Shown: one piece after another, positions 2,391-60,364 of the stretch
Numbering within the stretch: position 1 is the stretch's first letter
How the letters are laid out: the number at the start of each line of letters is the position of its first letter
From: a phage
Strand: one strand, 5' to 3'
Sequence record: PZ347775.1
Length of the DNA: 64,000 nucleotides
Position numbers and translations under genes: made by a program
Notes under the pieces: model-generated
Database searches by the model: none
The model's input: only the letters and a program-made list of their open reading frames with translations
Told to the model about the DNA's origin: nothing

Positions 2391-2597
2391 TCAATAATCC
2401 GCTAAAAGATCGACGATTGCATCACGAAGACACTTATTCGCAATACGCTTAAGAGCAATTTCAGTTTCTGGAGCATTTTGAATAATCATTGAATTCAATT
2501 CAGCCTCAGCAAACTGAAGTTCTTTGACTAATTCAGCTTTATATTTTCCTTGCCCTTTCTTAGCTTTTGCTCGTTTTAATTCAGCTGTAGTAAACAT
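2391..2597 (-). CDS. hypothetical protein (68 aa)
   Basis: ATG at 2595-2597 preceded by conserved GGAGAATAAA cassette and early promoter; track ORF runs through the promoter. Confidence 0.5.
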   Translation of the reverse strand: MFTTAELKRAKAKKGQGKYKAELVKELQFAEAELNSMIIQNAPETEIALKRIANKCLRDAIVDLLADY

Positions 2598-2631
2598 TTT
2601 ATTCTCCAAATCCGCATCAGTTGATAGTTGT

Positions 2632-2661
2632 ATAGTACCACAGTCCTTGTGGTTTGTAAAC
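2632..2661 (-). promoter_or_regulatory. T4-type early promoter
   Basis: -35 GTTTAC (2656-2661), 18-nt spacer containing palindrome ccacaaggactgtgg, -10 TACTAT (2632-2637). Confidence 0.5.
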
Positions 2662-2677
2662 CGTTTTGTGAAAATTT

Positions 2678-3235
2678 TTAAATGGAAAGATACCATCCGT
2701 TGTAGTTGCTTTTTCTTACAACTTTACGAAGGTCTTCTCTATCACCGATGAACTTCGGAGTGTACTGGATGACACCTGGATGAATTTCTTTAGTGTTGAA
2801 TATAATTATACAGTCAGCGACTTGGTGATTCAGAATGGGCCCTAGATTTATTCCAGAACCGTATGGATACTCTCCGCTGCATCCGGTTGTTACCGAAATC
2901 CAACGTGAGTCAGTTTGGTGTGTCTTAACTTCTACACGAAGCCCGCAATATCTTGGATGCGCCAATACATCCCATGCGTATGTATACGGGTCATTAACAT
3001 CCTCTTGGCCTTTGTTAACATACCCGCTCAGCCAATCTGCTACAAAAAACTCTGCATACACAGCGATACGGCATCTTTCGATAACTTCTGCTTTATCCTG
3101 ATTAGGATTTTGTTTTAAAGAGTATCTTGCTGTATCAGCAATTTTGACCTTCATTTCACTAGTCAAATCATTGTTCGATAGGGTAAATGTTGGAATCTGA
3201 AATAGTCTCTGTAAACCCGGATTCGTTTTCTGCAT
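2678..3235 (-). CDS. denB: DenB, endonuclease IV (dC-specific ssDNA endonuclease)
   Basis: 185-aa ORF, T4 DenB length; synteny immediately upstream of rIIB region. Confidence 0.8.
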   Translation of the reverse strand: MQKTNPGLQRLFQIPTFTLSNNDLTSEMKVKIADTARYSLKQNPNQDKAEVIERCRIAVYAEFFVADWLSGYVNKGQEDVNDPYTYAWDVLAHPRYCGLRVEVKTHQTDSRWISVTTGCSGEYPYGSGINLGPILNHQVADCIIIFNTKEIHPGVIQYTPKFIGDREDLRKVVRKSNYNGWYLSI

Positions 3236-3300
3236 TAAACTTTCCTTTTACGTCGGAATCACTGATATTCATATAATAAATCATAGTTTCTCTTAAAACA

Positions 3301-14332: not shown

Positions 14333-14640
14333 CGTAAATTCCCTGCAATTGGTATACTAACAATACGCCCAGTATCTAAAATTCGCCGATATAATCTTTG
14401 TGTGTCTACATCAGGCTTAACATGTTTAACTTCTATTTTATTAAACCAAAACTTGCGTGGAGTCTCAACTAATCTCGGAATTCCCATACCTAAAGCTAGT
14501 CGATACTGCTCTTTAAGAGTTGTAAAAACTTTATCGGCAATCTCCCTTTCAAAAAATACAGCAGGACGATGTTCATCAAGAGGAACAGGCACCGCAAATC
14601 CATCTTTATCTCTATACACTATCGCATATACATAAAACAT
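14329..14640 (-). CDS. hypothetical protein (dda.1 position)
   Basis: 103-aa ORF overlapping dda start by 4 nt. Confidence 0.6.
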   Translation of the reverse strand: MFYVYAIVYRDKDGFAVPVPLDEHRPAVFFEREIADKVFTTLKEQYRLALGMGIPRLVETPRKFWFNKIEVKHVKPDVDTQRLYRRILDTGRIVSIPIAGNLR

Positions 14641-19187: not shown

Positions 19188-19397
19188 TTAAATTACATGA
19201 CTATTTATAATAAATTCTTGCGGAACGCTAAAATATCCAATTTTAGTTAATATAACAACATCACCGTTAATAACTACCGGAGAATAATCGGCTGGAGCAT
19301 TAAACTTCCAATGAGCTCTAATATTATATCCATCAGAACCAAATGCTCGACTAGCCGGTCTCCCGGCTTTTTGCCATGCATAAAAATCAAATTTCAT
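19188..19397 (-). CDS. hypothetical protein (69 aa)
   Basis: ORF between soc and gene 56. Confidence 0.5.
   Translation of the reverse strand: MKFDFYAWQKAGRPASRAFGSDGYNIRAHWKFNAPADYSPVVINGDVVILTKIGYFSVPQEFIINSHVI
19202..19209 (-). promoter_or_regulatory. T4 late promoter TATAAATA for soc
   Basis: Plus-strand tatttata at 19202-19209, about 30 nt upstream of soc ATG. Confidence 0.55.
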
Positions 19398-19594
19398 TTT
19401 GAATGCTCTATAATTAATTTTAAGGCTTCTTCATGCACCTTACCTAATTGTATATGTCCAGTTTTAATTGTGTAAGCTTTGTGGAGCTGATTAGATAAGA
19501 GCTCACATACGAGCTCCTTGTCATAATTTTTAAATAGCTGGTCAATACGTTTCTTGTGGGCTTTCTTAAGCTGGCGTTTATTTAAACGAGCCAT
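19394..19594 (-). CDS. hypothetical protein (66 aa, basic)
   Basis: ORF between soc and gene 56. Confidence 0.5.
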   Translation of the reverse strand: MARLNKRQLKKAHKKRIDQLFKNYDKELVCELLSNQLHKAYTIKTGHIQLGKVHEEALKLIIEHSK

Positions 19595-20113: not shown

Positions 20114-20764
20114 TTATTTTTCCTTTCTTATGAAGTTTTCTATCATATGTCTATAGCAGATATTAGGATAACCTGCCTTGACAGCTATTTTATTAAATTT
20201 TGTGCGCTTAGGTCTATTATTATAAACCCATAATTCATAAAGCGCATCATAACTATTCCATATTTCTCCTCGCCTAGGATTTGGTAAACCGTATCGAGGC
20301 GAATTTTTACCGCTAAATCTTCCTTTTCGGGCTTTACTCATATTAGCCTTGGCTTCATCGGATATAATTTTACCTTTATGAGCTAGACGCATTTTGGCTT
20401 TAGTTTCTTCTGGGGTCTTTTTGCCTTTAATCCATGACGGCTTGCCATATCTAGGATTATTTTCACCCGAGAAAAGAACAGAGTTTTGGATTTTAAGAGT
20501 TTCTATTAATCTACTTGTTAATTTAACACCTTTATTATATCGCATTAAATTTACAGCATAATGCAATCCTCTCACATCTGGATATATTTTAGTTAATAAT
20601 CTATGAGCTATAAAATGCTCACGCGCAGTTAACTCAACAAGATTGTTTTTGTCATCTGCTCCTCCTATACATCTAGGAATTATATGATGGCGTTCTTTAT
20701 ATCCGCCAAGATGCCGGCATTTAGCTTTTGTAATTAAAGCCGAGTAAATTTTTTGGTAATTCAC
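20114..20764 (-). CDS. free-standing HNH homing endonuclease with NUMOD-like DNA-binding repeats
   Basis: N-terminal His-Me finger ERHHIIPRCIGGADDKNNLVELTAREHFIAH; repeated basic K-G-K modules; GTG or nearby start with AAGGA SD. Confidence 0.8.
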   Translation of the reverse strand: MNYQKIYSALITKAKCRHLGGYKERHHIIPRCIGGADDKNNLVELTAREHFIAHRLLTKIYPDVRGLHYAVNLMRYNKGVKLTSRLIETLKIQNSVLFSGENNPRYGKPSWIKGKKTPEETKAKMRLAHKGKIISDEAKANMSKARKGRFSGKNSPRYGLPNPRRGEIWNSYDALYELWVYNNRPKRTKFNKIAVKAGYPNICYRHMIENFIRKEK

Positions 20765-51006: not shown

Positions 51007-52008
51007 TTACTTAATTAACTGTAAAGCTTGTTCAAGACGATTCAGGCGATTAACAGATTCTTCCCAAATACTTTTAGCCTGCTCATATTCTTTCTGCGCT
51101 TTATTAGAAATTTCTAGAACTTCTTTATAAGCTTTTTCTAGTGCAATAACTTCTGGACGAATTTCTACCGGTTCAGGCGAATCGTCAAGATTATCCATTA
51201 GTTCCTCAAGGGTAGTTTCTTCTTTAGGAGTATTCACAATTTCTTCACATTTTTGTTGGTAAATTTCTTTATCAGTCGGTAAATAAGCACATTTCACTTC
51301 ACGAAGACTAACTACAATTTTATATCCTTCCCAACCGCATATATTCTTAAAAGGATACGTATGAATATTTTCTACTGTTTCCATACAAAGTAATGCGGTT
51401 TCTAATTGACGAGTTATAGTGCTAGCAATTGAGAAAAATTTATTAATGTTCTTTTGGTTAGTTTCTGGTGTAAAAAATCCATAATTCACAAAAATAGATA
51501 CTTTATTTTTATCAAGTTCATATTCTTTTACGATAATCATATCAGAAGCCAAAGGATGAATTTGACGATAATCGCCATAACATAATTTAGAAGCTGATTT
51601 TAGAATTTGCTTTTTGAAAAGTCTGAAATTACTAATCCAACGACGAGTAAAAATATTCTCAGGGTCTTCTTTATTATTAAGATGATAAGAATTAACATCA
51701 CCGAACCAATTATATCCTACTACATCTTTGGTTCGTTTAATTTCTTTCCCAAAATTACCAAGAATATCCCGATTAACCAAATATGAAAGAAGACGAGACT
51801 CTTTAAAGGTTTTCTTGATAACATCTTTATCTACACGACTAGAAATTTTACGAATTTCATGAATAAATTTAGTAGAAGAAACAATACCTGCATCAACACT
51901 ATTGAGCCATTGATTGATAATAGAAATAACGCTATTTTGACCAAACATCGGTATAGCTTTATCATCAATAACACTATTGAATGATTTGATATATTCGTTA
52001 CGAGTCAT
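51007..52008 (-). CDS. paralog family member 2 (333 aa) with C-terminal coiled coil
   Basis: ATG MTRNEY after GAGGAG SD; RRW...FKKQILKSASKL block shared with member 3. Confidence 0.6.
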   Translation of the reverse strand: MTRNEYIKSFNSVIDDKAIPMFGQNSVISIINQWLNSVDAGIVSSTKFIHEIRKISSRVDKDVIKKTFKESRLLSYLVNRDILGNFGKEIKRTKDVVGYNWFGDVNSYHLNNKEDPENIFTRRWISNFRLFKKQILKSASKLCYGDYRQIHPLASDMIIVKEYELDKNKVSIFVNYGFFTPETNQKNINKFFSIASTITRQLETALLCMETVENIHTYPFKNICGWEGYKIVVSLREVKCAYLPTDKEIYQQKCEEIVNTPKEETTLEELMDNLDDSPEPVEIRPEVIALEKAYKEVLEISNKAQKEYEQAKSIWEESVNRLNRLEQALQLIK

Positions 52009-52065
52009 ATTAATCTCCTCAGTAGAAAGTAAGAACATTATACCACATCCTTGTGGCAAAGTAAA

Positions 52066-53094
52066 CTAGTTCAGTGCATTTAGTGCATTGTTCAGTTTAG
52101 AACGTTGCTTCGTAAGATTTTTGACTTTTTCTTGAGCTTTTTCTAGTATCTTTTCAGCTTCTAGCACTTCATTAGTTGCTTTAACGAGTTCATCATCTAC
52201 TGCCTTGATAGACTTCTCAATCGCATCGGCATGCCATTTTTCAACAGGTTTAAGACTCGGATTTTCAACAGGAAGAAAATTCACTTTATTGAATTTCCAT
52301 GCATCCTTATTACCTGAACTATACATCCAAAATTTAGGATCGTTTGATGAGTAATTGGATAAATTTAAATTTAAGTTATCTTGTACTTCTTGCTTTTTCT
52401 CTTGTGGGACTTCGTCCTTTCTCAAAAAATCGTATTTAAATGAAACGATCATATCAAGTTCATATGTTGTTGTGTCTAATTTAAATCGCTCAAAACGAGG
52501 TAAAATCTTAGACTGAACTGCAGCAACAACGTCCATATACTTAAATGCTTCTGTCAACTGCGATTTAAGGCATTCGCAAATTGAAAGAGAATTTTTTGTA
52601 TTAGGTTTAAAGCTAATTCGTGCAGTTCTGTTATTTTCTTTTAATGGTCTTACTTCCATCTGAAGAGTATAACCATCAAATTTCAGGTTCTTTAAGTTAA
52701 TATCAGAACCTTTTAATCGACTCGCAGTTGATAAAATTTGCTTTAATTGTCTACGGAACAGAGCAATAAATCTCCATTCAATACGATAATGATTTGGATT
52801 GAAAAATCCAGATGATAAATCGACCTTACTTTGACCAACGCCTTGAACAAATAAAGGATTTTTATAATCAATAGTTTTACAGAAATCGGTGAGTTGCTCA
52901 CGAGCAGTCATTTGTGTAATATAACCCGCTTTACTAAAATTACGCACCCATTCACTGCTATTCGTATACTTAAAGTGATGAATAACACGATTAACTTTAT
53001 CAGGGTCTAAATTATTTTCACACAAAAATGTCATAACATCACGAGTATAGCTGGCGTTACGAACCATATCTTCAATTTGAGAACGAGTTTTCAT
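52066..53094 (-). CDS. paralog family member 3 (342 aa) with C-terminal coiled coil
   Basis: RIEWRFIALFRRQLKQILSTASRL and KYMDVV blocks; C-terminal coiled coil. Confidence 0.6.
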   Translation of the reverse strand: MKTRSQIEDMVRNASYTRDVMTFLCENNLDPDKVNRVIHHFKYTNSSEWVRNFSKAGYITQMTAREQLTDFCKTIDYKNPLFVQGVGQSKVDLSSGFFNPNHYRIEWRFIALFRRQLKQILSTASRLKGSDINLKNLKFDGYTLQMEVRPLKENNRTARISFKPNTKNSLSICECLKSQLTEAFKYMDVVAAVQSKILPRFERFKLDTTTYELDMIVSFKYDFLRKDEVPQEKKQEVQDNLNLNLSNYSSNDPKFWMYSSGNKDAWKFNKVNFLPVENPSLKPVEKWHADAIEKSIKAVDDELVKATNEVLEAEKILEKAQEKVKNLTKQRSKLNNALNALN

Positions 53095-53102
53095 GGTGTT
53101 CC

Positions 53103-54014
53103 TTAAGATTTAAGTAAATCGACAATTTTAATTAACTTTTCACGCTCAGATTTAGCTTTACTACTCAGTCCAGATAGTCTGAAAATTTCATCATCATATT
53201 GTTGAATAGAAATATTCAGCTCTTCAATCTGCTTATTAAAATAATCAATTTGTTCAGAATGTTTTTCGTTACTACGAACTGGTACAGGTTTTGTAGGCAA
53301 TGTAGTTGAACTGGATTCATCCGGGCGATAAATTAAAATACAACTTGAACCAATAGGGCATTTTGCACCAGATGAATATTCTAATGTTCCAGCTTCTTTT
53401 AAAACTTCAAAAGCTAAACAGAGATGATGTCCCATATTAACATAATCTGTAGAGTGAGCTCTGATGTAATAATCATCTCCACGAATACTAAATTTAAAGC
53501 ATTTAAGGTCTTCTGTATTATTGGTCTTAAAAATCATTTGTTTATCTAGACCTTTAGCTAATCGAGCGCCCAATGCTAATAATCGTCGTTGATTTTCCCA
53601 CAAATCCGCAATCATTTGATCGAATGATAATTTCGGCATTAGTCGACCATAAAGGTCATATCCTTTATTATAATTACGAAGAATTTCACTCGCATTAATA
53701 CGAGACAACGCTCCAATTTTATTAAGGGCTTTCATAATGCGATTAGATAAACTCATTCCAGACCCATTTGTTCGCTGTAAATGTTTTTCTAATCCAAAGC
53801 CAATATCAACTTTAAACTTATCTAAAATTTCGGCATGAACATCTCTGTCAATAACATTCAAATCCAAAGTTGGGTTAAATCTATGAAAAAATTTATCTGG
53901 CTCTCCACGACGAAATACAGTCCATTCATTCATCATTTTTTTATTAACTAAAGATTTAATTACTGCATTGACATTATTAATTGCTACTGACATATTTTCC
54001 TCACTCAATTTCAA
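53103..54014 (-). CDS. paralog family member 4 (303 aa) with C-terminal coiled coil
   Basis: Divergent member; ADLWENQRRLLALGARLAKGL block and C-terminal coiled coil. Confidence 0.55.
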   Translation of the reverse strand: MKLSEENMSVAINNVNAVIKSLVNKKMMNEWTVFRRGEPDKFFHRFNPTLDLNVIDRDVHAEILDKFKVDIGFGLEKHLQRTNGSGMSLSNRIMKALNKIGALSRINASEILRNYNKGYDLYGRLMPKLSFDQMIADLWENQRRLLALGARLAKGLDKQMIFKTNNTEDLKCFKFSIRGDDYYIRAHSTDYVNMGHHLCLAFEVLKEAGTLEYSSGAKCPIGSSCILIYRPDESSSTTLPTKPVPVRSNEKHSEQIDYFNKQIEELNISIQQYDDEIFRLSGLSSKAKSEREKLIKIVDLLKS

Positions 54015-54408
54015 TTTTACTAAATATACAGAATAAGATGGAACAGACTACATAAGCACCACACACAGATTGAACTAATACCATCCCAAAGAACCAAACA
54101 ATATTATCAAACAGTGTCTGTTTTACGTCGAAAGGACGTAAACTTACAGTAATATTATCACCTTTTTCTATTGAAGAATACATCTCTGGGGAAATATATT
54201 CACTAAATCTATAACCGTCTTTGAGTTCATATACGGCAATAAACGATAAACTAGACCCTTTTCCTTGTGTTCCTGTAATGGTATTAACTACAGTAACATC
54301 ATAATCTTTATAATGCATATAATCATTAATTGCGTAATAACCGTATGCAACTACTACACATAAACAGCATATCAATAAATTCAATCTTTTAATTATCAAC
54401 CGTTTCAT
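54001..54408 (-). CDS. membrane protein (135 aa)
   Basis: N- and C-terminal hydrophobic helices. Confidence 0.5.
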   Translation of the reverse strand: MKRLIIKRLNLLICCLCVVVAYGYYAINDYMHYKDYDVTVVNTITGTQGKGSSLSFIAVYELKDGYRFSEYISPEMYSSIEKGDNITVSLRPFDVKQTLFDNIVWFFGMVLVQSVCGAYVVCSILFCIFSKIEIE

Positions 54409-54463
54409 AATAATCTCAATTAAAATGGCTTAGAACCATTATACCATCCTTGGTATAAAGCGG

Positions 54464-54991
54464 TTATGCGAGTACCGTCTTTAACCGTTCTTCAAACTTC
54501 CGAAGAGTATTTTGGCGTTCAGCTCTTTGCTTTTTGTAAGTTTCAATACGCTCTGAAATGAGAGTGTATCGTTCATTTACTGATTCTTTCATAAAATCAG
54601 GAATTTCACGAGAAGCTTTAATCTCGTCAAATTTATCAATAACAGCTTGCTCTTCAGCAATTAAGTTATCATACATTAAAATATCTTTCTTGATAAACTC
54701 AATATCTTCTTGAGTTACACGAGATAACTTAGATGCTTTATCCTTTTTGTACTGTTCATTAGTATCACGAGACCAATGTAATGTACGATTTTTATTCGTA
54801 TTTTTGTAAATTTCGACAATACCAATCTCATCAATAATAACGATCCAATTCCAACGGGATTTGTAAATTTGTCCTCCATCAACAGTGATTTCACCTCCGA
54901 TTGAGATGTCGTTAAAGAACTTGCTTTGTGCTTCAGATTTAAATTTACCATCATTGTAATTTACCAAGTTGAAAATATCTTTAGCGTTCAT
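54464..54991 (-). CDS. hypothetical protein (175 aa)
   Basis: ATG after early promoter/SD module. Confidence 0.55.
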   Translation of the reverse strand: MNAKDIFNLVNYNDGKFKSEAQSKFFNDISIGGEITVDGGQIYKSRWNWIVIIDEIGIVEIYKNTNKNRTLHWSRDTNEQYKKDKASKLSRVTQEDIEFIKKDILMYDNLIAEEQAVIDKFDEIKASREIPDFMKESVNERYTLISERIETYKKQRAERQNTLRKFEERLKTVLA

Positions 54992-55019
54992 TTTCTGTTC
55001 CTCCGTAGTTGATAGTTGT

Positions 55020-55049
55020 ATAGTACCACAGAGGAACAGTCTTGTAAAC
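55020..55049 (-). promoter_or_regulatory. T4-type early promoter
   Basis: -35 GTTTAC (55044-55049), 18 nt, -10 TACTAT (55020-55025); same module as at 1907-1936. Confidence 0.5.
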
Positions 55050-55051
55050 CA

Positions 55052-55366
55052 CTAAAAGAAACTTCTTTCGCAATTTTTTCCACTGAACCATGCGCTCACT
55101 GCTTTCTTAGTCTCAGGAGCAGTGTTATCCATAAACCATTCAAAGGCAGCCTTTTTATGATTCTGGAGGGCTTCTCGGGCTTTAATCTGCTCACGGTCTA
55201 TTAACACTAACATATGAGCCTTTCTTGTCACCATGGGCTTCTTATGATTTTTTGAATACTCCCAGTCATTTGTCCATCGCATTGTCGTTGCGAACTGAAA
55301 TACAGCTTCTTTAATCTTAGTTTCGTAAATTTCACGAGCCTTTGAGTATAACATCACTACCTCCAT
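55052..55366 (-). CDS. hypothetical protein (104 aa)
   Basis: ORF. Confidence 0.5.
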   Translation of the reverse strand: MEVVMLYSKAREIYETKIKEAVFQFATTMRWTNDWEYSKNHKKPMVTRKAHMLVLIDREQIKAREALQNHKKAAFEWFMDNTAPETKKAVSAWFSGKNCERSFF

Positions 55367-55436
55367 TCACCAGTTTAATTCTAGTCATCTTTTTGATGGC
55401 AGTCCATATAATCTATTTCTGAACTGTCTTTTTGTC

Positions 55437-56156
55437 TTAGGATTCTTCTAAATGTCTTTTCTGAAAAGTTGATACCATACTACGATACGGTTCATTTGGA
55501 TACCCGTGTTTTATAGCTTCCTTTGTAAATTTTCTCCATCCATATTTAGTTTCTTTCCAAAGCTCGAATAATTCATCTTCATATTGCCATATAGTTAAAT
55601 GAGAACGCTTTGCAGCTTTAATTCCATTAATATGCTTTTCTTTTACTACAGGATTACTTAGTTTCTTTTTAATAATATTACTAACTTTTCTAACAAAAAC
55701 TGGGTCCTTATATCGTTGCGAAGTTTTTATTGAAGTGTTTAATTTAGCTTCCGGTGTGGATGTGACCTCTTTCATCTTTTTCTTCATATGCTGTATATGA
55801 TTAGGATTTTTCCATAAATTTATAGAATGCTTTTTGCATTTTATCCTAGTTTCATCTGCAACCTTTCCTCCTTCACCTCCGTATGACAGGTTAACACAGT
55901 TTTTTCCATATTTCAATTTACCTGCCATGATATATAATATTTCAGCTTGTACCATTTTATCATAATTATCAAAAACTTCTAAAACCGTTTTTGTTAATAT
56001 GTGGTCATTTGACACTTTTACACGTTCTATATAATTTCCACTACCAACATACGAATCATTGATGTTATTAGTTATATGTCGACCATAATAGTATTTCTTA
56101 ATACCTGTCTTTAAATTTAATATTTCAGTTTTATAGATAGTAAAATATTTTTTCAT
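55437..56156 (-). CDS. free-standing GIY-YIG (Seg-like) homing endonuclease
   Basis: N-terminal TIYKTEILNLKTGIKKYYYGRH ... SYVGSG; NUMOD-like repeats; C-terminal ELW...GYPN...YR module shared with the HNH endonuclease. Confidence 0.8.
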   Translation of the reverse strand: MKKYFTIYKTEILNLKTGIKKYYYGRHITNNINDSYVGSGNYIERVKVSNDHILTKTVLEVFDNYDKMVQAEILYIMAGKLKYGKNCVNLSYGGEGGKVADETRIKCKKHSINLWKNPNHIQHMKKKMKEVTSTPEAKLNTSIKTSQRYKDPVFVRKVSNIIKKKLSNPVVKEKHINGIKAAKRSHLTIWQYEDELFELWKETKYGWRKFTKEAIKHGYPNEPYRSMVSTFQKRHLEES

Positions 56157-57121
56157 TTTAATAATACCGTTTCAGCAATTTCTTCCCAACCGTTTTTGTC
56201 GGTCATAATAAAGTCAGCAAGATAAAGAGCAGTACGCAGTGAAACATTGCGTAAACGATTAACATTAACTTTCATCCATGATAATGCTTTATAAGTTTCT
56301 TCATCAGAAAGACCGCGCTTTTGCATCATGTCAGTTGAAAGAATAACATCTTCAACCCTGACCATAATTTCTTCATTAGTGTGAACACCCAAATCCAAAT
56401 AAACTGAGCGGGACACCAATGCTTGTAAGTGTGGAGCAAGTTTAGTACCACGGTCTAATTCGCGGTCAATGTCAACGTTTGTGATAAAAACAATCGTTCC
56501 TTTAAATTCAAACTCACGGTCAATGCCTTTTTCTTCTAAGTAAGAAGATGCAGTGCTCCAGCAGACTTTACGGGTCTCTCCAGTGTCCAGAGCAGCTTTT
56601 AGAAGATTAAGAATGTCCATATCAGAGAAAACATCCACATCATCAATCAAAAGGACAGAATTCTCTTCACGATTATTCCAAAGCTGTTCATAAAGACCAA
56701 TACCAGAGATTTTACCATTAATGCTTTTATATTCAATGTATCCATTATCATTTGCTTTATTTAAAGCTTTATCTAAAGAATACGTTTTACCAATACCTGC
56801 TGCGCCAGAGATAATTAATGAACGAATATTTCCATTAATAATACCATTCGTCATCATTCCCATAACATTAAATCTTTTATTAATGCGGGTTTTCATATCT
56901 TCATATGATTCTTTAACTTCTTCAACTTTTACACCATCATATGAAATATCTGATTTGTAAACCCAAACACCGCGACGTTTACCGTCAATTTCAACAAAAA
57001 CTTTACCATCTCCTTGTGCATCTACCGGAGCATTATCTGGGAACCATTCGCCTAAGAGCTCAAAAGTTCCAGAGATTTCTTTACCGAAGTAGATACCCTT
57101 ATTGATAGTTACAGTTTTCAT
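56153..57121 (-). CDS. AAA+/P-loop ATPase (322 aa)
   Basis: Walker A GAAGIGKT, Walker B LLIDDVD, sensor-1-like FITN; ATG after GGAGAATAAA cassette. Confidence 0.7.
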   Translation of the reverse strand: MKTVTINKGIYFGKEISGTFELLGEWFPDNAPVDAQGDGKVFVEIDGKRRGVWVYKSDISYDGVKVEEVKESYEDMKTRINKRFNVMGMMTNGIINGNIRSLIISGAAGIGKTYSLDKALNKANDNGYIEYKSINGKISGIGLYEQLWNNREENSVLLIDDVDVFSDMDILNLLKAALDTGETRKVCWSTASSYLEEKGIDREFEFKGTIVFITNVDIDRELDRGTKLAPHLQALVSRSVYLDLGVHTNEEIMVRVEDVILSTDMMQKRGLSDEETYKALSWMKVNVNRLRNVSLRTALYLADFIMTDKNGWEEIAETVLLK

Positions 57122-57182
57122 TTTATTCTCCAAATCCGTATCAGTTGATAGTTGTATAGTACCATACCCCCTTTGTGTTGAT

Positions 57183-57668
57183 TTATTCCATTTCTACTAT
57201 ATGCATGTTCTTTTTGCTATCAAAATATATGTTTTTAACTATTAACTCAGAATTAATTGGCAGTAAAAACTCTCTTTCATAATCTACCATACAAAGATTA
57301 TCATAAAGCTTGTTAAGCTTATCATCGTCAGTTTGGCCAGATTCTTCAATTGCGATTAAATTTTCTAAAATGTCAATCATAGCAGTCGAATAGTCAAAAA
57401 CGTTTGCATTTTTTAACACTACTAAAACATTAGTCATATAGCGTTCTGCCGCAAACGTTTCAGCTATATGAGACTCACTGCTAAAGGAAGTTATTCTTTT
57501 AAATTTGATTCTCCTATTAACTTCAAACTTATAAGATAACACTTCCTCTATTGTAAGTCCTCTAAAAAGTGTGTCTTTAATCTCAAGTTTGTCTTTAATG
57601 TAATCATTAACACGCTTATGATTAAAATCATTAATTTTGTTGCCAAGGCATTGCATTAAAATATGCAT
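57183..57668 (-). CDS. ModA/ModB-like R-S-E ADP-ribosyltransferase candidate (161 aa)
   Basis: LFRG / SFSSES / YEREFLLP in ModA-like order and spacing; GAGGAG SD; own early promoter. Confidence 0.6.
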   Translation of the reverse strand: MHILMQCLGNKINDFNHKRVNDYIKDKLEIKDTLFRGLTIEEVLSYKFEVNRRIKFKRITSFSSESHIAETFAAERYMTNVLVVLKNANVFDYSTAMIDILENLIAIEESGQTDDDKLNKLYDNLCMVDYEREFLLPINSELIVKNIYFDSKKNMHIVEME

Positions 57669-57714
57669 TGTATTCTCCTCAATTTTTAAAGAGCAATTAA
57701 TTAACTACACATAT

Positions 57715-57793: not shown

Positions 57794-58807
57794 TCATTTA
57801 TAATAACTTCGGTGGTTTTCAAGATAAACCCTCTCAAGGAAGTCATCCCAGAAACCCATGTCTACTTTTTGCTGCATACCGTTCTTAGAAGCTTCAATGG
57901 ATGCTGCTTCTACTTGATCGACCACATCTTCCAAAAACTCTTGAACAGTTTTAAATGGATGCTTACCCAACTTCACGTCGAGAATAAACGGAGCATCTTG
58001 GAGTGGATAAACCAAGTCACCAGTTTTGTAAATTTCCAATAGTTGGAGTCCACCACGACAAGCATGGCTCAAAGCTTTCCAGTCAATGCCCTCATTCGCT
58101 TCAGCTTTACGAGCGCGTTCACCGTATTCGGCATCAAGTTTATTCAAAGACTGCTTAAGCTCAATAAGAGAAAGTGTTGTCTGATATTTACGACCCAACA
58201 CGGTATAGAACGTTTGAGGGCCTGTTTTCTCATGATTATGGAATACCCATTCGCAGAATTCGTTCTCTGGAAGACGATGCTTAATATCTTCAACTTTAGT
58301 GCGACGTTGCTTAATAGAACCATCTTCTTGGTAATCAACCCACTGGTCAGGGATTTGATTAACTACTTTCAATACATCACGTAATGCGGCCAAACGAGAA
58401 CCCTTAACACCATATTTAGAAGCTTGCTTGCGAACATATCCTAAATAGGATTTCATGTTAGTTGTATAAAACCGTGAACGATTGTCTTGAATAAACTTCC
58501 ATACATCAGGCAAATCAGATTTAACTACCAGTTCAGGTGGAGTGTGGAGCATATCCAATGCTACGGTTTCACCATCTGCTGCTAATTTAAAGAAATACTT
58601 AAGACTGTATAGTTCATGGTCAATATCATTTTTAGTGTTTTTAGATGATGTGTTGTTAGTGTTTTTACTCATATGCTCTTTAACATTTCCGATAAGAATA
58701 TCGCGAGCAGGAGGAACAAAGATTTCTTTAAAATCTACATCAGATTCTGGTGTAGAAGTTCCATAAAGATGACTACCAAAATAGCTTTTCATTACTGTTT
58801 TCATCAT
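57794..58807 (-). CDS. Pol-beta superfamily nucleotidyltransferase (337 aa)
   Basis: N-terminal hG[GS]x10DhDh motif: YFGSHLYGTSTPESDVDF; remainder helical; overlaps upstream gene by ATGA. Confidence 0.65.
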   Translation of the reverse strand: MMKTVMKSYFGSHLYGTSTPESDVDFKEIFVPPARDILIGNVKEHMSKNTNNTSSKNTKNDIDHELYSLKYFFKLAADGETVALDMLHTPPELVVKSDLPDVWKFIQDNRSRFYTTNMKSYLGYVRKQASKYGVKGSRLAALRDVLKVVNQIPDQWVDYQEDGSIKQRRTKVEDIKHRLPENEFCEWVFHNHEKTGPQTFYTVLGRKYQTTLSLIELKQSLNKLDAEYGERARKAEANEGIDWKALSHACRGGLQLLEIYKTGDLVYPLQDAPFILDVKLGKHPFKTVQEFLEDVVDQVEAASIEASKNGMQQKVDMGFWDDFLERVYLENHRSYYK

Positions 58808-59265
58808 TCAGCCTTATATTCAATAACAGGACATACTTTAGCTTTACGCGCTTTTAAAAATTCGACGATAATAGATTTCTTTGGTTGAATAGGAGGTAAA
58901 CCTTTATACGCCCTATCAATATTTTCTACATGTAAAGCATAATCCTTTTTCCATTTATAATCTTTATATTTTTCATGCAGTTGTGCAGGAATAACAAATG
59001 AACCGATAATAAGTAAAACAAGCAAAATGGCAAGTATAAATGCCGATGGAATAAGAGTCCATAAACTACCAAAAATAAGCCATTTCTGCATGATTTCTGC
59101 GCAGATGATAGTTAGACCTGCGAGTATAGTACATCCGAAAAAAGAAACAAAAAATGTAGGAATAACAATAGACCAAAAGTATGCACACAGTGTCTTAGGT
59201 CGTTTCCATTCATCATTAAACATTTTGAATAATTTATAGTGCCAAGAGCTTTCATTAATAATCAT
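58804..59265 (-). CDS. membrane protein (153 aa, about three TM helices)
   Basis: Hydrophobic segments; translationally coupled to nucleotidyltransferase. Confidence 0.6.
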   Translation of the reverse strand: MIINESSWHYKLFKMFNDEWKRPKTLCAYFWSIVIPTFFVSFFGCTILAGLTIICAEIMQKWLIFGSLWTLIPSAFILAILLVLLIIGSFVIPAQLHEKYKDYKWKKDYALHVENIDRAYKGLPPIQPKKSIIVEFLKARKAKVCPVIEYKAE

Positions 59266-59267
59266 AA

Positions 59268-59789
59268 TTATCCTTTCATTGAAGGTGTAACGGTTGTTAA
59301 ATACTTAATCATGGCTTCAGCTTCTGATTTTGATAATGAAATTTCTCCATTGTTTTGACGAATAGAAATAAAATCCGGATGACGGTCACCACCAGCTTTT
59401 AAAACACACATATAAGTATCAGTTTCATCTTCAATATTTGAAATGATTGAAGCAGTTCCGCATGAATGTGGTTTTTGATAAATCAATACAGCTTTTCTTC
59501 CACCGTTTGACTGTTCATAAACTTTTAACACATCAAACAAATCGCTTCTTTTATCAATAGCTAAGATGTTGTTTTCATCTTCAATGTTAAATCCTTCGGA
59601 TACTTCATAAAGTGTCACCCATAAATCGCCAATATCGATAGTAGTATTTTCCTTTCCATGACTTTCAAGAGCGTGACAAATTTTCTTAATTTCGTCATAA
59701 CTCATTTTAACAATATCATCTCCTTGAATAAGGAAGATGTCATTTTTAAATTCAACACGAATTAAACCGCTTTCACTTGAAATAAACAT
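59268..59789 (-). CDS. hypothetical protein (173 aa), paralog of next gene
   Basis: Shares GFNIE and C-terminal EAEAMIKYLTTVTPSM block with 59796..60338. Confidence 0.55.
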   Translation of the reverse strand: MFISSESGLIRVEFKNDIFLIQGDDIVKMSYDEIKKICHALESHGKENTTIDIGDLWVTLYEVSEGFNIEDENNILAIDKRSDLFDVLKVYEQSNGGRKAVLIYQKPHSCGTASIISNIEDETDTYMCVLKAGGDRHPDFISIRQNNGEISLSKSEAEAMIKYLTTVTPSMKG

Positions 59790-59795
59790 ATTTCC

Positions 59796-60338
59796 TCACT
59801 TTGAAATCATAGTTGGAATGACAGAATCAAGATAAGTCTTTAGCGCAATAGCTTCATCTTTGGTAAATGTGACAATATGCGCTCGAAAATCATCAATTTG
59901 ACGAATAGTTAAGACATCTCCTTCTTCATAACATTTTGATACATTTAAAACAGTTTCATCATTCTGATCGCACTGATCGCAAGCGTTAGTAATAATAGCA
60001 TTGCAATTTTTAAGCCATTTTAAACTATGTTTTCTTTCATTAGAATAATAAAAATATTTAATGTAAGTTATAAAATTATCCCAATTATTAATTGATAAGC
60101 ATATTGACTCGCTTTCAATATTAAATCCTGGGCATAAAGAATAAAAATGAATTTTATGCTCATCATTAATGCTTACAATTTTATCGGTGTAAGGTTTTTC
60201 AATTTGGGTTAAATGAATAATTTCGCTAGGCGTAAAATATAGCATATCGTCTTCTTGCGTCAAACGATACATATTATTTACTTTTTCTATAGCCAATTCA
60301 CCAAAAAGTGAACTAACTTCTAGTACTAATCGTTTCAT
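59796..60338 (-). CDS. hypothetical protein (about 180 aa), paralog of previous gene
   Basis: C-terminal DEAIALKTYLDSVIPTM; start either ATG 60338 or GTG 60362. Confidence 0.55.
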   Translation of the reverse strand: MKRLVLEVSSLFGELAIEKVNNMYRLTQEDDMLYFTPSEIIHLTQIEKPYTDKIVSINDEHKIHFYSLCPGFNIESESICLSINNWDNFITYIKYFYYSNERKHSLKWLKNCNAIITNACDQCDQNDETVLNVSKCYEEGDVLTIRQIDDFRAHIVTFTKDEAIALKTYLDSVIPTMISK

Positions 60339-60364
60339 ATTGATTCTCTTCGACTCACTCACAA

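What the first reader, a model, noticed from the sequence alone, without database searches (positions are those of the whole stretch)
55437..56156. GIY-YIG homing endonuclease inserted between accessory genes
The N-terminus TIYKTEILNLKTGIKKYYYGRH...SYVGSG matches the Seg-type GIY-YIG pattern. The gene is wedged between the 104-aa ORF and the AAA+ ATPase with a 4-nt overlap, typical of a free-standing homing endonuclease that has invaded an intergenic site. Its presence predicts marker exclusion of this locus in mixed infections.
Basis: partly seen in the sequence, partly recalled or inferred. Interest (0 to 1): 0.5.

Follow-up and report, generated by a model that had tools for sequence, protein, structure and literature searches.

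The report
Seg-type homing endonuclease beside nrdC.10
This is an intact copy of an already annotated but never tested selfish nuclease gene that sits just after the nrdC.10 gene in about one in seven T4-like coliphages, so it is a real but ordinary feature.

Summary
The ORF is real: 55437..56156, minus strand, 239 aa, with an ATGA overlap onto nrdC.10. The window is a Tequatrovirus (T4-like phage) nrdC–mobD region.

The protein is a Seg-type GIY-YIG endonuclease.
- BLASTP matches T4 SegB, F, E, A, C and D (E 1e-11 to 8e-6, at most 33% identity).
- A family profile aligns to I-TevI with Y8, Y23/G25, E72 and N89 on Y6, Y17/G19, E75 and N90.

It lies on a 733-bp cassette (55441..56173) that replaces 36–38 bp of the empty site. 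In the phage collection, 434 records have the empty site and about 67–69 carry the cassette. Boundaries are identical in all nine occupied alleles examined. The cassette recodes the last six codons of nrdC.10. It has about a quarter of the flanks' polymorphism (Fisher p 9e-8).

The same gene is RB32ORF093c, also present in T6, RB14 and RB51 and annotated "similar to seg". I found no experimental paper. Cleavage and marker exclusion remain predictions. Verdict: interpretation supported, already known, low interest.

The parts
55437..56156 (-). Seg-type GIY-YIG homing endonuclease gene (239 aa). It is the same gene as RB32ORF093c and its copies in T6, RB14 and RB51. The copy here is intact.
55866..56156 (-). 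N-terminal GIY-YIG catalytic domain (about aa 1-97). Topology is strand, strand, helix, strand, helix. Key residues are Y8, Y23, G25, H27, T29, D34, Y36, G38-S39-G40, E72, N89 and G93-G94.
55602..55856 (-). Five tandem 17-residue helical units (aa 101-185), each followed by a Pro. This is a diverged NUMOD3-like linker and DNA-binding region.
   Evidence: Helices H101-116, H118-132, H135-150, H152-166 and H169-185. The 17-aa register is printed. 27 of 70 homologues hit Pfam NUMOD3; the query itself does not. P0012 and SegA hit NUMOD3 at residues 102-124.
55440..55601 (-). C-terminal three-helix module (aa 186-239), presumably DNA-binding. It is shared with T4 SegA and with the Mob-like HNH protein elsewhere in this window.
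   Evidence: BLASTP to SegA extends to residue 232. 48% identity over 44 aa to the ORF at 20114..20764 (E 9e-9). Helices H188-203, H207-216 and H225-238.
55441..56173 (-). The 733-bp cassette that is present or absent between phages. It replaces 36-38 bp of the empty allele.
   Evidence: Alignment to T4. Identical boundaries in 9 of 9 occupied alleles and 36-38 bp in 9 empty alleles. 14 segregating sites in 733 bp against 160 in 2407 bp of flank among 8 occupied phages.
56153..56173 (-). Recoded 3' end of nrdC.10, carried on the cassette. It reads GAAACGGTATTATTAAAATGA (E-T-V-L-L-K-stop). The empty allele reads GAGGTTACTCTTCTGAAATAA (E-V-T-L-L-K-stop). 13 of 21 nt differ with an almost unchanged peptide. 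This is my candidate for the disrupted recognition or cleavage site.
   Evidence: Junction sequences. It lies within the only stretch that differs consistently between occupied and empty alleles, since the flanks have no fixed differences.
56153..57133 (-). nrdC.10 (P-loop ATPase-like), the upstream neighbour. It is the only neighbour shared with the Jiaodavirus homologue, so it is the likely target gene.
   Evidence: The Nispero nrdC.10 is 74% identical and is directly followed by the 46%-identical Seg homologue. No nrdC.9, nrdC.8 or nrdC.7 lies downstream there.
55052..55366 (-). nrdC.9 (DUF7203), the downstream neighbour.
55437..55439 (-). The seg stop codon TAA lies in the flank (CTAAGAC), just outside the cassette. 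All 9 occupied alleles have A at the middle position of the codon. Six of 9 empty alleles have T (TAT), which would extend the ORF.

Best explanation
The ORF encodes a free-standing homing endonuclease of the T-even 'Seg' branch of the GIY-YIG superfamily. It is a separate lineage from T4 SegA-G. The proposed mechanism is as follows. In a cell co-infected by a phage that lacks the gene, the enzyme binds through its C-terminal helical repeats and three-helix module. Its N-terminal GIY-YIG domain then makes a double-strand break in or near the 3' end of nrdC.10 of the empty allele. T4-type recombinational repair copies the 733-bp cassette and some flanking DNA from the donor genome (intronless homing), so donor markers at nrdC.10/nrdC.9 are over-inherited. 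The donor is protected because the cassette has replaced the junction. It re-encodes the last six nrdC.10 codons with a different nucleotide sequence, which keeps nrdC.10 intact. The gene is probably transcribed with nrdC.10 and translated by coupling at the ATGA overlap.

Shown here: the fold, the family, the conserved active-site residues, the presence/absence polymorphism with fixed boundaries, the recoding, and the low diversity of the cassette.

Inferred: nuclease activity, the position of the target, homing, marker exclusion, and the mode of expression.
For: Family and fold.
- PHROG 314 at E 1.8e-30.
- BLASTP to T4 SegB 1e-11, SegF 2e-8, SegE 4e-8, SegA 6e-8, SegC 6e-7 and SegD 8e-6.
- Of 70 aligned homologues, 27 hit Pfam SegE_GIY-YIG, 19 hit GIY-YIG and 27 hit NUMOD3.
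- hhalign of the family profile against I-TevI: probability 88.6%, E 2.6e-6, with Y8/Y6, Y23-G25/Y17-G19, E72/E75 and N89/N90 aligned.

Intactness.
- Every invariant and near-invariant family column is kept.
- The reading frame is full length, unlike the AR1 and G157lw records.

Mobility signature.
- 434 phage records have the contiguous empty junction and about 67-69 the occupied one. Occupied phages fall in several ICTV species (T6, RB32, ar1, snuabm) and host genera.
- Boundaries are identical in 9 of 9 occupied alleles.
- There is no fixed difference between 8 occupied and 7 empty phages in 1400 and 1000 bp of flank, so the cassette sits on mosaic backgrounds.
- The cassette has 14 segregating sites in 733 bp against 160 in 2407 bp of flank in the same 8 genomes (Fisher p 9e-8). 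Nucleotide diversity is 0.0066 against 0.022-0.026.
- A 46%-identical homologue sits directly after the 74%-identical nrdC.10 of Klebsiella Jiaodavirus phages with different downstream genes.

The behaviour of T4 Seg enzymes (intronless homing, marker exclusion) is taken from PMC2988022.
Against: - No direct hit of the query to Pfam GIY-YIG, SegE_GIY-YIG or NUMOD3, to NCBIfam, or to PDB sequences. However, T4 SegF and SegG, both listed as active in PMC2988022 Table 1, also get no Pfam hit.
- The equivalent of I-TevI Arg27 cannot be identified.
- No T4 late promoter (TATAAATA) lies near the gene. There is no obvious Shine-Dalgarno sequence and no significant RNA structure at the start codon, so expression is assumed, not shown.
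- Free-standing T4 endonucleases often cut hundreds of bp from their gene (PMC2988022), so placing the target at the recoded 21 nt is a guess.
- The diversity comparison rests on 8 genomes.
- No experiment on this protein was found.
Confidence: 0.75

Rival explanations
1. The gene is a relic, not a currently mobile element. It was present in an ancestor of the T-even phages downstream of nrdC.10, was inherited vertically, and has been lost from most lineages by recombination with empty alleles. The present copy may be inactive or on its way to decay.
For: A homologue occupies the same position relative to nrdC.10 in another genus. Two of eight sampled copies (AR1, G157lw) have 1-nt deletions that break the frame. 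Only about 13-14% of Tequatrovirus records keep it. No dedicated promoter or ribosome-binding site was found.
Against: The cassette has about a quarter of the flanks' polymorphism in the same genomes (p 9e-8). This fits recent spread across diverged backgrounds better than ancient vertical inheritance. The flanks show no haplotype linked to the cassette. The window copy keeps all conserved residues and the full frame. Both frameshifts lie in homopolymer runs and could be sequencing errors.
Confidence: 0.13
2. The nuclease is kept mainly for a function useful to the phage rather than for its own spread. Examples are creating breaks that drive segmental amplification of nearby accessory or anti-defence genes, as recently reported for SegB in T6, or cutting competitor phage genomes.
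For: SegB of T6 promotes amplification of anti-defence loci in cis and in trans (PMC13096335). The neighbourhood is a variable accessory region: a P-loop ATPase (nrdC.10), a nucleotidyltransferase (nrdC.11), and a ModB/Alt-like ADP-ribosyltransferase ORF at 57183..57668.
Against: Nothing in the sequence data speaks for such a role. The sporadic distribution and possible frameshifted copies are what a dispensable selfish gene shows. This role would add to homing rather than replace it.
Confidence: 0.08
3. The protein is a catalytically dead GIY-YIG derivative that acts only as a DNA-binding protein, such as a regulator.
For: No residue equivalent to I-TevI Arg27 can be assigned. The query misses all curated GIY-YIG models.
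Against: The same two observations apply to T4 SegF and SegG, both listed as active in PMC2988022 Table 1. The Glu and Asn that bind the metal, and the GIY and YIG tyrosines, are all conserved.
Confidence: 0.03

Closest known systems
RB32ORF093c and its copies in phages T6, RB14, RB51, RB68, AR1 and about 60 other Tequatrovirus records
   Same: It is the same gene at the same site. Amino-acid identity is 98.7-99.6% for full-length copies, and the cassette boundaries are identical. GenBank annotates it as 'putative site-specific intron-like DNA endonuclease, similar to seg'. Seg-like genes of RB32, RB14, RB51 and T6 are counted in Table 5 of Petrov et al. 2010 (PMC2993671).
   Different: The window copy has one private substitution (T55 where the others have S). 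In this phage a ModB-like ORF also lies between nrdC.10 and nrdC.11, as in W143, N2 and SYGD1.
T4 SegA-SegG (free-standing GIY-YIG homing endonucleases)
   Same: It shares the N-terminal signature Y-x-Y-K-T ... Y-x-G-x-H-x-T ... D-x-Y-x-G-S-G ... E ... N-x-x-x-G-G. It has a similar size, a NUMOD3-type middle region, and a C-terminal module shared with SegA. It is free-standing between genes, next to a conserved gene. SegA, B, C, E, F and G are listed as active, and Seg genes are over-inherited in T4 x T2 crosses (PMC2988022).
   Different: Identity to any T4 Seg is at most 33%, so it is not an orthologue of any of them. The label 'segE' in the AR1 and RB68 records is a misnomer, because T4 segE lies between inh and uvsW. 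It occupies a different site (nrdC.10/nrdC.9) that is empty in T4 and T2. Activity is untested.
I-TevI (td intron endonuclease of T4), the structural archetype of GIY-YIG homing endonucleases
   Different: It is not intron-encoded. The helix that carries R27 and H31 in I-TevI is replaced by the loop H-x-T-x4-D-x-Y-x-G-S-G. No Zn-finger linker is evident. Sequence identity is about 14-18%.
Jiaodavirus (Klebsiella phage Nispero gp68, JD18-like) Seg homologue
   Same: 46% identity over the full length (E 1e-68). It lies immediately downstream of the nrdC.10 orthologue, whose C-terminus also ends ...EIAEVTQLR.
   Different: It is in a different genus. It starts after a short spacer instead of overlapping the nrdC.10 stop. 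The downstream genes are unrelated to nrdC.9, nrdC.8 and nrdC.7.

Membership tests
GIY-YIG nuclease superfamily | A 'GIY' Tyr in strand 1 and a 'YIG' Tyr-x-Gly in strand 2, about 10-15 residues apart | tested here: met
   TIY (Y8) and YYG (Y23, G25). G25 is invariant and Y8 and Y23 are at least 90% conserved in 70 homologues. They align to I-TevI Y6 and Y17/G19.
GIY-YIG nuclease superfamily | Conserved Arg in the helix after strand 2 (I-TevI R27) | tested here: inconclusive
   In hhalign and MAFFT the I-TevI segment K22-H31 falls opposite a gap for this protein and for T4 SegA-F alike. That segment is replaced by a conserved H27/T29/D34/Y36/G38-S39-G40 loop. Which residue takes over the Arg role cannot be told without model coordinates or an experiment.
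GIY-YIG nuclease superfamily | Metal-binding Glu (I-TevI E75) | tested here: met
   E72 is invariant in 70 homologues and aligns to E75.
GIY-YIG nuclease superfamily | Conserved Asn (I-TevI N90) | tested here: met
   N89 is invariant and aligns to N90.
GIY-YIG nuclease superfamily | Three-stranded antiparallel sheet flanked by helices (the GIY-YIG fold) | tested here: met
GIY-YIG nuclease superfamily | Match to a curated family model (Pfam PF01541 or PF19835) | tested here: not met
   No hit even at E<=10 and none in NCBIfam. As calibration, T4 SegF and SegG also give no Pfam hit, and SegA-E give only E 3e-9 to 3e-6. Of 70 homologues of the query, 27 hit PF19835 and 19 hit PF01541. This is a sensitivity limit of the models, not a defining biological feature.
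T-even Seg family (free-standing GIY-YIG homing endonucleases) | Significant sequence similarity to T4 Seg proteins | tested here: met
   BLASTP gives SegB 1e-11, SegF 2e-8, SegE 4e-8, SegA 6e-8, SegC 6e-7 and SegD 8e-6. SegG is only 0.026.
T-even Seg family (free-standing GIY-YIG homing endonucleases) | Own ORF between phage genes, not inside an intron or intein | tested here: met
   It lies between nrdC.10 and nrdC.9. Both neighbours stay complete.
T-even Seg family (free-standing GIY-YIG homing endonucleases) | C-terminal modular DNA-binding region (NUMOD-type repeats and/or a helix-turn-helix) | tested here: inconclusive
   There are five 17-residue helical repeats and a terminal three-helix module. 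The module is 48% identical to that of a Mob-like HNH protein and aligns to the SegA C-terminus. Homologues hit NUMOD3, but the query does not. DNA binding was not tested.
Homing endonuclease (functional class) | Sporadic presence/absence among close relatives, with a precise and constant insertion boundary | tested here: met
   434 empty against about 67-69 occupied records. Boundaries are identical in 9 of 9 occupied alleles. The cassette has about a quarter of the flanks' polymorphism.
Homing endonuclease (functional class) | Site-specific cleavage of the allele that lacks the gene | not testable with these tools
   This needs protein and DNA substrates. No published assay of this protein was found.
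Homing endonuclease (functional class) | Endonuclease-dependent unidirectional transfer of the gene and flanking markers in mixed infection | not testable with these tools
   This needs phage crosses. It is shown for the seg genes of T4 (PMC2988022) but not for this gene.

The most novel reading that the evidence does not exclude
The 21 nt that the cassette rewrites at the end of nrdC.10 are the enzyme's recognition or cleavage site. Thirteen of the 21 positions change while the peptide goes only from EVTLLK to ETVLLK. On this reading the element carries its own built-in immunity by re-encoding the host gene's C-terminus. T4's rare frameshifted nrdC.10 end (ACGGG for GAGG plus one extra A) would then be a repair scar or a resistance allele left by past attack. 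A further possibility is that, like SegB in T6, the enzyme's breaks also drive amplification or exchange of the adjacent accessory genes (the ATPase, the nucleotidyltransferase and the ModB-like ADP-ribosyltransferase).
Probability: 0.25. Interest if true: 0.4.

Novelty: already known. Interest (0 to 1): 0.2.

Why it matters
It matters little beyond careful annotation. The gene has been in GenBank since the RB32 genome, labelled 'similar to seg', and seg-type homing is a textbook phenomenon in T-even phages.

This analysis adds five things:
- A firm fold-level assignment for a protein that escapes Pfam and NCBIfam.
- A correction of the 'segE' label used in some records.
- The exact 733-bp mobile unit and its empty site.
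- A concrete, testable guess at the target: the recoded nrdC.10 stop region.
- Population evidence that the cassette has spread recently across diverged backgrounds.

T6, RB32 and T2 are standard laboratory phages, so the predicted cleavage and localized marker exclusion could be tested quickly. That would add one more mapped Seg/target pair to the T-even system.

Tried and rejected
- Direct family searches of the query found nothing: Pfam at E<=0.1 and E<=10, NCBIfam, phmmer against PDB sequences, and a 70-sequence profile against PDB sequences. I treated this as a sensitivity limit after finding that T4 SegF and SegG behave the same way.
- The word-indexed protein search gave only two hits. 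The exhaustive representative search was needed.
- I looked for flank haplotypes (co-conversion tracts) linked to the cassette. There were no fixed differences in 1400 and 1000 bp.
- I looked for a late promoter, a sigma-70-like promoter, a terminator, or a start-codon-sequestering hairpin specific to the gene. There is no TATAAATA nearby. The only promoter-like site next to the start codon is a weak 9-of-12 match. Folding z-score was -0.72.
- Base composition does not mark the cassette as clearly foreign. Windows within the gene have GC about 0.29-0.31; windows in the neighbouring genes have 0.30-0.40.
- IMG/VR pattern scans for the three junction types returned too few contigs (2, 0 and 1) to estimate allele frequencies. 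Short junction queries against the phage collection served instead.
- Literature searches for nrdC.9, nrdC.10 and RB32ORF093c found no study of this gene.

Full report
**Observation.** Its start overlaps the stop of the upstream 326-aa ORF (56153..57133) in the sequence ATGA. A 70-nt spacer separates its stop from the 104-aa ORF at 55052..55366.

The window is a Tequatrovirus, that is, a close relative of T4. Megablast of 54400..57700 finds 750 phage records, most of them 95-99% identical. Alignment to the T4 reference identifies the neighbours as nrdC.10 (weak P-loop/AAA matches) and nrdC.9 (DUF7203).

**What the protein is.** Curated libraries do not see it directly. There is no Pfam hit even at E<=10, no NCBIfam hit and no PDB sequence hit. 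Only PHROG 314 'homing endonuclease' matches, at E 1.8e-30.

Four independent lines nevertheless place it in the Seg branch of the GIY-YIG superfamily.
- *Pairwise similarity.* BLASTP against the T4 proteins gives SegB 1e-11, SegF 2e-8, SegE 4e-8, SegA 6e-8, SegC 6e-7 and SegD 8e-6. Identity is never above 33%. The SegA alignment runs nearly the full length.
- *Homologues.* An exhaustive search of 1.84 billion representative proteins gives 1447 relatives at E<=1e-3. In an alignment of 70 of them, G25, Y36, G38, G40, E72 and N89 are invariant, and Y8, Y23, H27, T29, D34, S39, G93 and G94 are at least 90% conserved. Of the 70 members, 27 hit Pfam SegE_GIY-YIG, 19 hit GIY-YIG and 27 hit NUMOD3.
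- *Profile comparison.* The family profile aligns to I-TevI with probability 88.6% and E 2.6e-6. It puts Y8 on Y6, Y23/G25 on Y17/G19, E72 on the metal-binding E75, and N89 on N90.

As a calibration of the Pfam miss, T4 SegF and SegG, both listed as active in PMC2988022 Table 1, also get no Pfam hit.

**The catalytic Arg.** Glu and Asn are present. The Arg cannot be scored. The I-TevI helix that carries R27 lies opposite a gap in this protein and in T4 SegA-F alike, where a conserved H-x-T...D-x-Y-x-G-S-G loop takes its place. The window protein keeps all of those subfamily-conserved residues. I therefore read it as probably active, on the same footing as its characterised relatives.

**Rest of the protein.** Residues 101-185 form five helices with a 17-residue period, each unit followed by a proline. 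This corresponds to the region where homologues and SegA hit NUMOD3. Residues 186-239 form a three-helix module that aligns with the C-terminus of SegA. This module is 48% identical (E 9e-9) to the C-terminus of a Mob-like HNH protein encoded elsewhere in the window. That is an instance of the known sharing of DNA-binding modules between nuclease families.

**Is it an insertion, and is it mobile?**
- T4 lacks the gene. Window 55005..55440 and 56174..57166 align to T4 at 97%. Between them, 733 bp (55441..56173) stand in place of 38 bp.
- Across the phage collection, 434 records hold the contiguous empty junction. About 67-69 hold the gene: 65 records cover at least 80% of the DNA query, 67 have at least 90% protein identity, and 503 minus 434 leaves 69.
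- Carriers include T6, RB32, RB14, RB51, AR1, a Salmonella phage, Shigella phages and Yersinia phages, in several ICTV species.
- In nine occupied alleles the boundaries are identical to the base. In nine empty alleles the replaced segment is 36-38 bp.
- The common empty allele ends nrdC.10 with GAG GTT ACT CTT CTG AAA TAA (EVTLLK-stop). The cassette supplies GAA ACG GTA TTA TTA AAA TGA (ETVLLK-stop), and its stop overlaps the seg ATG. Thirteen of 21 nucleotides differ, yet the peptide is almost unchanged.
- T4's own ending (…ATGYSSEINS) is a frameshift variant that is rare. Only 3 records are at least 99% identical to the T4 junction, whereas 392 records cover at least 80% of the T2-type junction query.
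- Comparing 8 occupied with 7 empty phages, no site in 1400 bp of left flank or 1000 bp of right flank separates the two groups. The cassette therefore sits on mosaic backgrounds.
- Within the 8 occupied genomes the cassette has 14 segregating sites in 733 bp, against 160 in 2407 bp of flank (Fisher p 9e-8). Nucleotide diversity is 0.0066 against 0.022-0.026. This is what a recently spread element looks like. It is harder to reconcile with an old gene that was merely lost many times.
- Two of the eight records (AR1, G157lw) have single-base deletions that break the frame. That fits the decay phase of a homing-endonuclease life cycle, but both deletions lie in homopolymer runs and may be sequencing errors.

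**Likely target.** A 46%-identical homologue (E 1e-68) sits directly after the 74%-identical nrdC.10 of Klebsiella phage Nispero, a Jiaodavirus. The downstream genes there are unrelated to nrdC.9, nrdC.8 and nrdC.7. The conserved neighbour is therefore nrdC.10. This fits the rule that free-standing T4 endonucleases target a conserved gene next to their own (PMC2988022 Table 1).

The replaced junction is the only sequence that consistently distinguishes occupied from empty alleles. I therefore propose that the recognition or cleavage site overlaps the nrdC.10 stop region, and that the recoding gives the donor immunity. This is an inference. T4 Seg enzymes can cut hundreds of bp from their genes.

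**Expression.** No T4 late promoter motif lies near the gene; there are three TATAAATA in the window, all far away. The only promoter-like site next to the start codon is a 9-of-12 match whose -10 element lies within the recoded segment, and I give it no weight. The start region has no significant structure (z -0.72). Co-transcription with nrdC.10 and translational coupling at ATGA is the simplest reading, but it is unproven.

**Comparison with what is known, and novelty.** This is the gene annotated in RB32 as RB32ORF093c, 'putative site-specific intron-like DNA endonuclease, similar to seg', and copied into the T6, RB14 and RB51 annotations. Seg-like genes of these phages are counted in Table 5 of Petrov et al. 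2010 (PMC2993671). Some records call it 'segE' (AR1, RB68), which is wrong. T4 segE lies between inh and uvsW and is only 33% identical over 111 residues.

Full-text searches for nrdC.9, nrdC.10 with 'homing endonuclease', and RB32ORF093c found no study of this gene. The review of T4 mobile elements lists only SegA-G for T4. The element is therefore already known as an annotation and belongs to a well-understood class. Its activity, target and homing have, as far as I could find, not been tested.

**Rivals.**
- *Vertically inherited relic being lost.* This is supported by the same-site homologue in another genus and by the possible frameshifts. The low cassette diversity and the unlinked flanks speak against it.
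- *Beneficial role such as SegB-type amplification of anti-defence genes* (PMC13096335). This is possible in this accessory-gene neighbourhood, but nothing here supports it.
- *Catalytically dead DNA-binding derivative.* This is unlikely, given the conserved Glu, Asn and Tyr residues.

**Verdict.** The feature is ordinary for a T-even phage and already annotated. Interest is low.

Noticed in passing
window 20114..20764 (-): A 216-aa Mob-like HNH homing endonuclease (HNH and NUMOD3 Pfam hits; 62% identical to the first 81 residues of T4 MobE and 34% to MobD). It lies just upstream of gene 56, where T4 has dam. No T4 Dam homologue was found anywhere in the window. Its C-terminal 44 residues are 48% identical to those of the Seg protein under study.
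   Followed up: partly
window 57183..57668 (-): A 161-aa ORF between nrdC.10 and nrdC.11 that matches the C-terminal part of the Alt/Mod ADP-ribosyltransferase PHROG (E 7e-24). It is annotated 'ModB ADP-ribosylase' in UFV-AREG1. It is present in T2, AREG1, W143 and SYGD1, and absent from T4, RB32 and T6. JB75 and F1 carry a different pair of small ORFs (one a DUF4031 protein) at this spot, and SYGD1 carries both. This intergenic site is a second variable slot, independent of the Seg cassette.
   Followed up: partly
window 58804..59265 (-) and 59268..60362 (-): T4 mobD is absent. A 153-aa predicted membrane ORF takes its place (RB32ORF096c type, annotated 'replaces mobD'), followed by two ORFs of 173 and 188 aa. 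Within the window, mobC, the nrdD intron with I-TevII, segA and segF are also missing relative to T4.
   Followed up: partly
window 19188..19594 (-): Two small ORFs (69 and 66 aa) occupy the position between soc and gene 56, where T4 has segF.
   Followed up: no
L001 (T4) 14336..14373 compared with window 56153..56173: The reference T4 nrdC.10 ends with a frameshifted C-terminus (…EIATGYSSEINS). It has ACGGG in place of GAGG, plus an extra A. Most empty-site phages encode …EIAEVTLLK. Only 3 records match the T4 form at 99% identity or more. It could be a repair scar or a resistance allele at the presumed Seg target.
   Followed up: partly
window 56190..56192 region (17-19 nt upstream of the cassette); loci L002, L009, L015: A 3-nt cluster in nrdC.10 (CGG to TCA, Gly to His) is seen in 3 of 9 occupied alleles (W143, SYGD1 and an IMG/VR contig) and in none of 9 empty alleles. 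The window itself has CGG.
   Followed up: no
L016 (AR1) 2757..3254; L017 (G157lw) 2536..3254: In AR1 and G157lw the Seg gene carries single-base deletions in a T-run and an A-run. These truncate or split the ORF. They are either decaying copies or homopolymer sequencing errors. AR1 and RB68 label the gene 'segE', which it is not.
   Followed up: partly
window 56161..56189 (-): The recoded end of nrdC.10 creates a TATTAT hexamer 17 nt after TTGGGA, a 9-of-12 sigma-70-like match that ends 5 nt before the seg ATG. It is probably meaningless, but it is made by the cassette.
   Followed up: no
window 51007..54014 (-): Three consecutive ORFs of 303-350 aa (T4 nrdC.4, nrdC.5 and nrdC.6 by position) all end in similar coiled-coil-like, Lys/Glu-rich C-termini. 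They look like paralogues.
   Followed up: no
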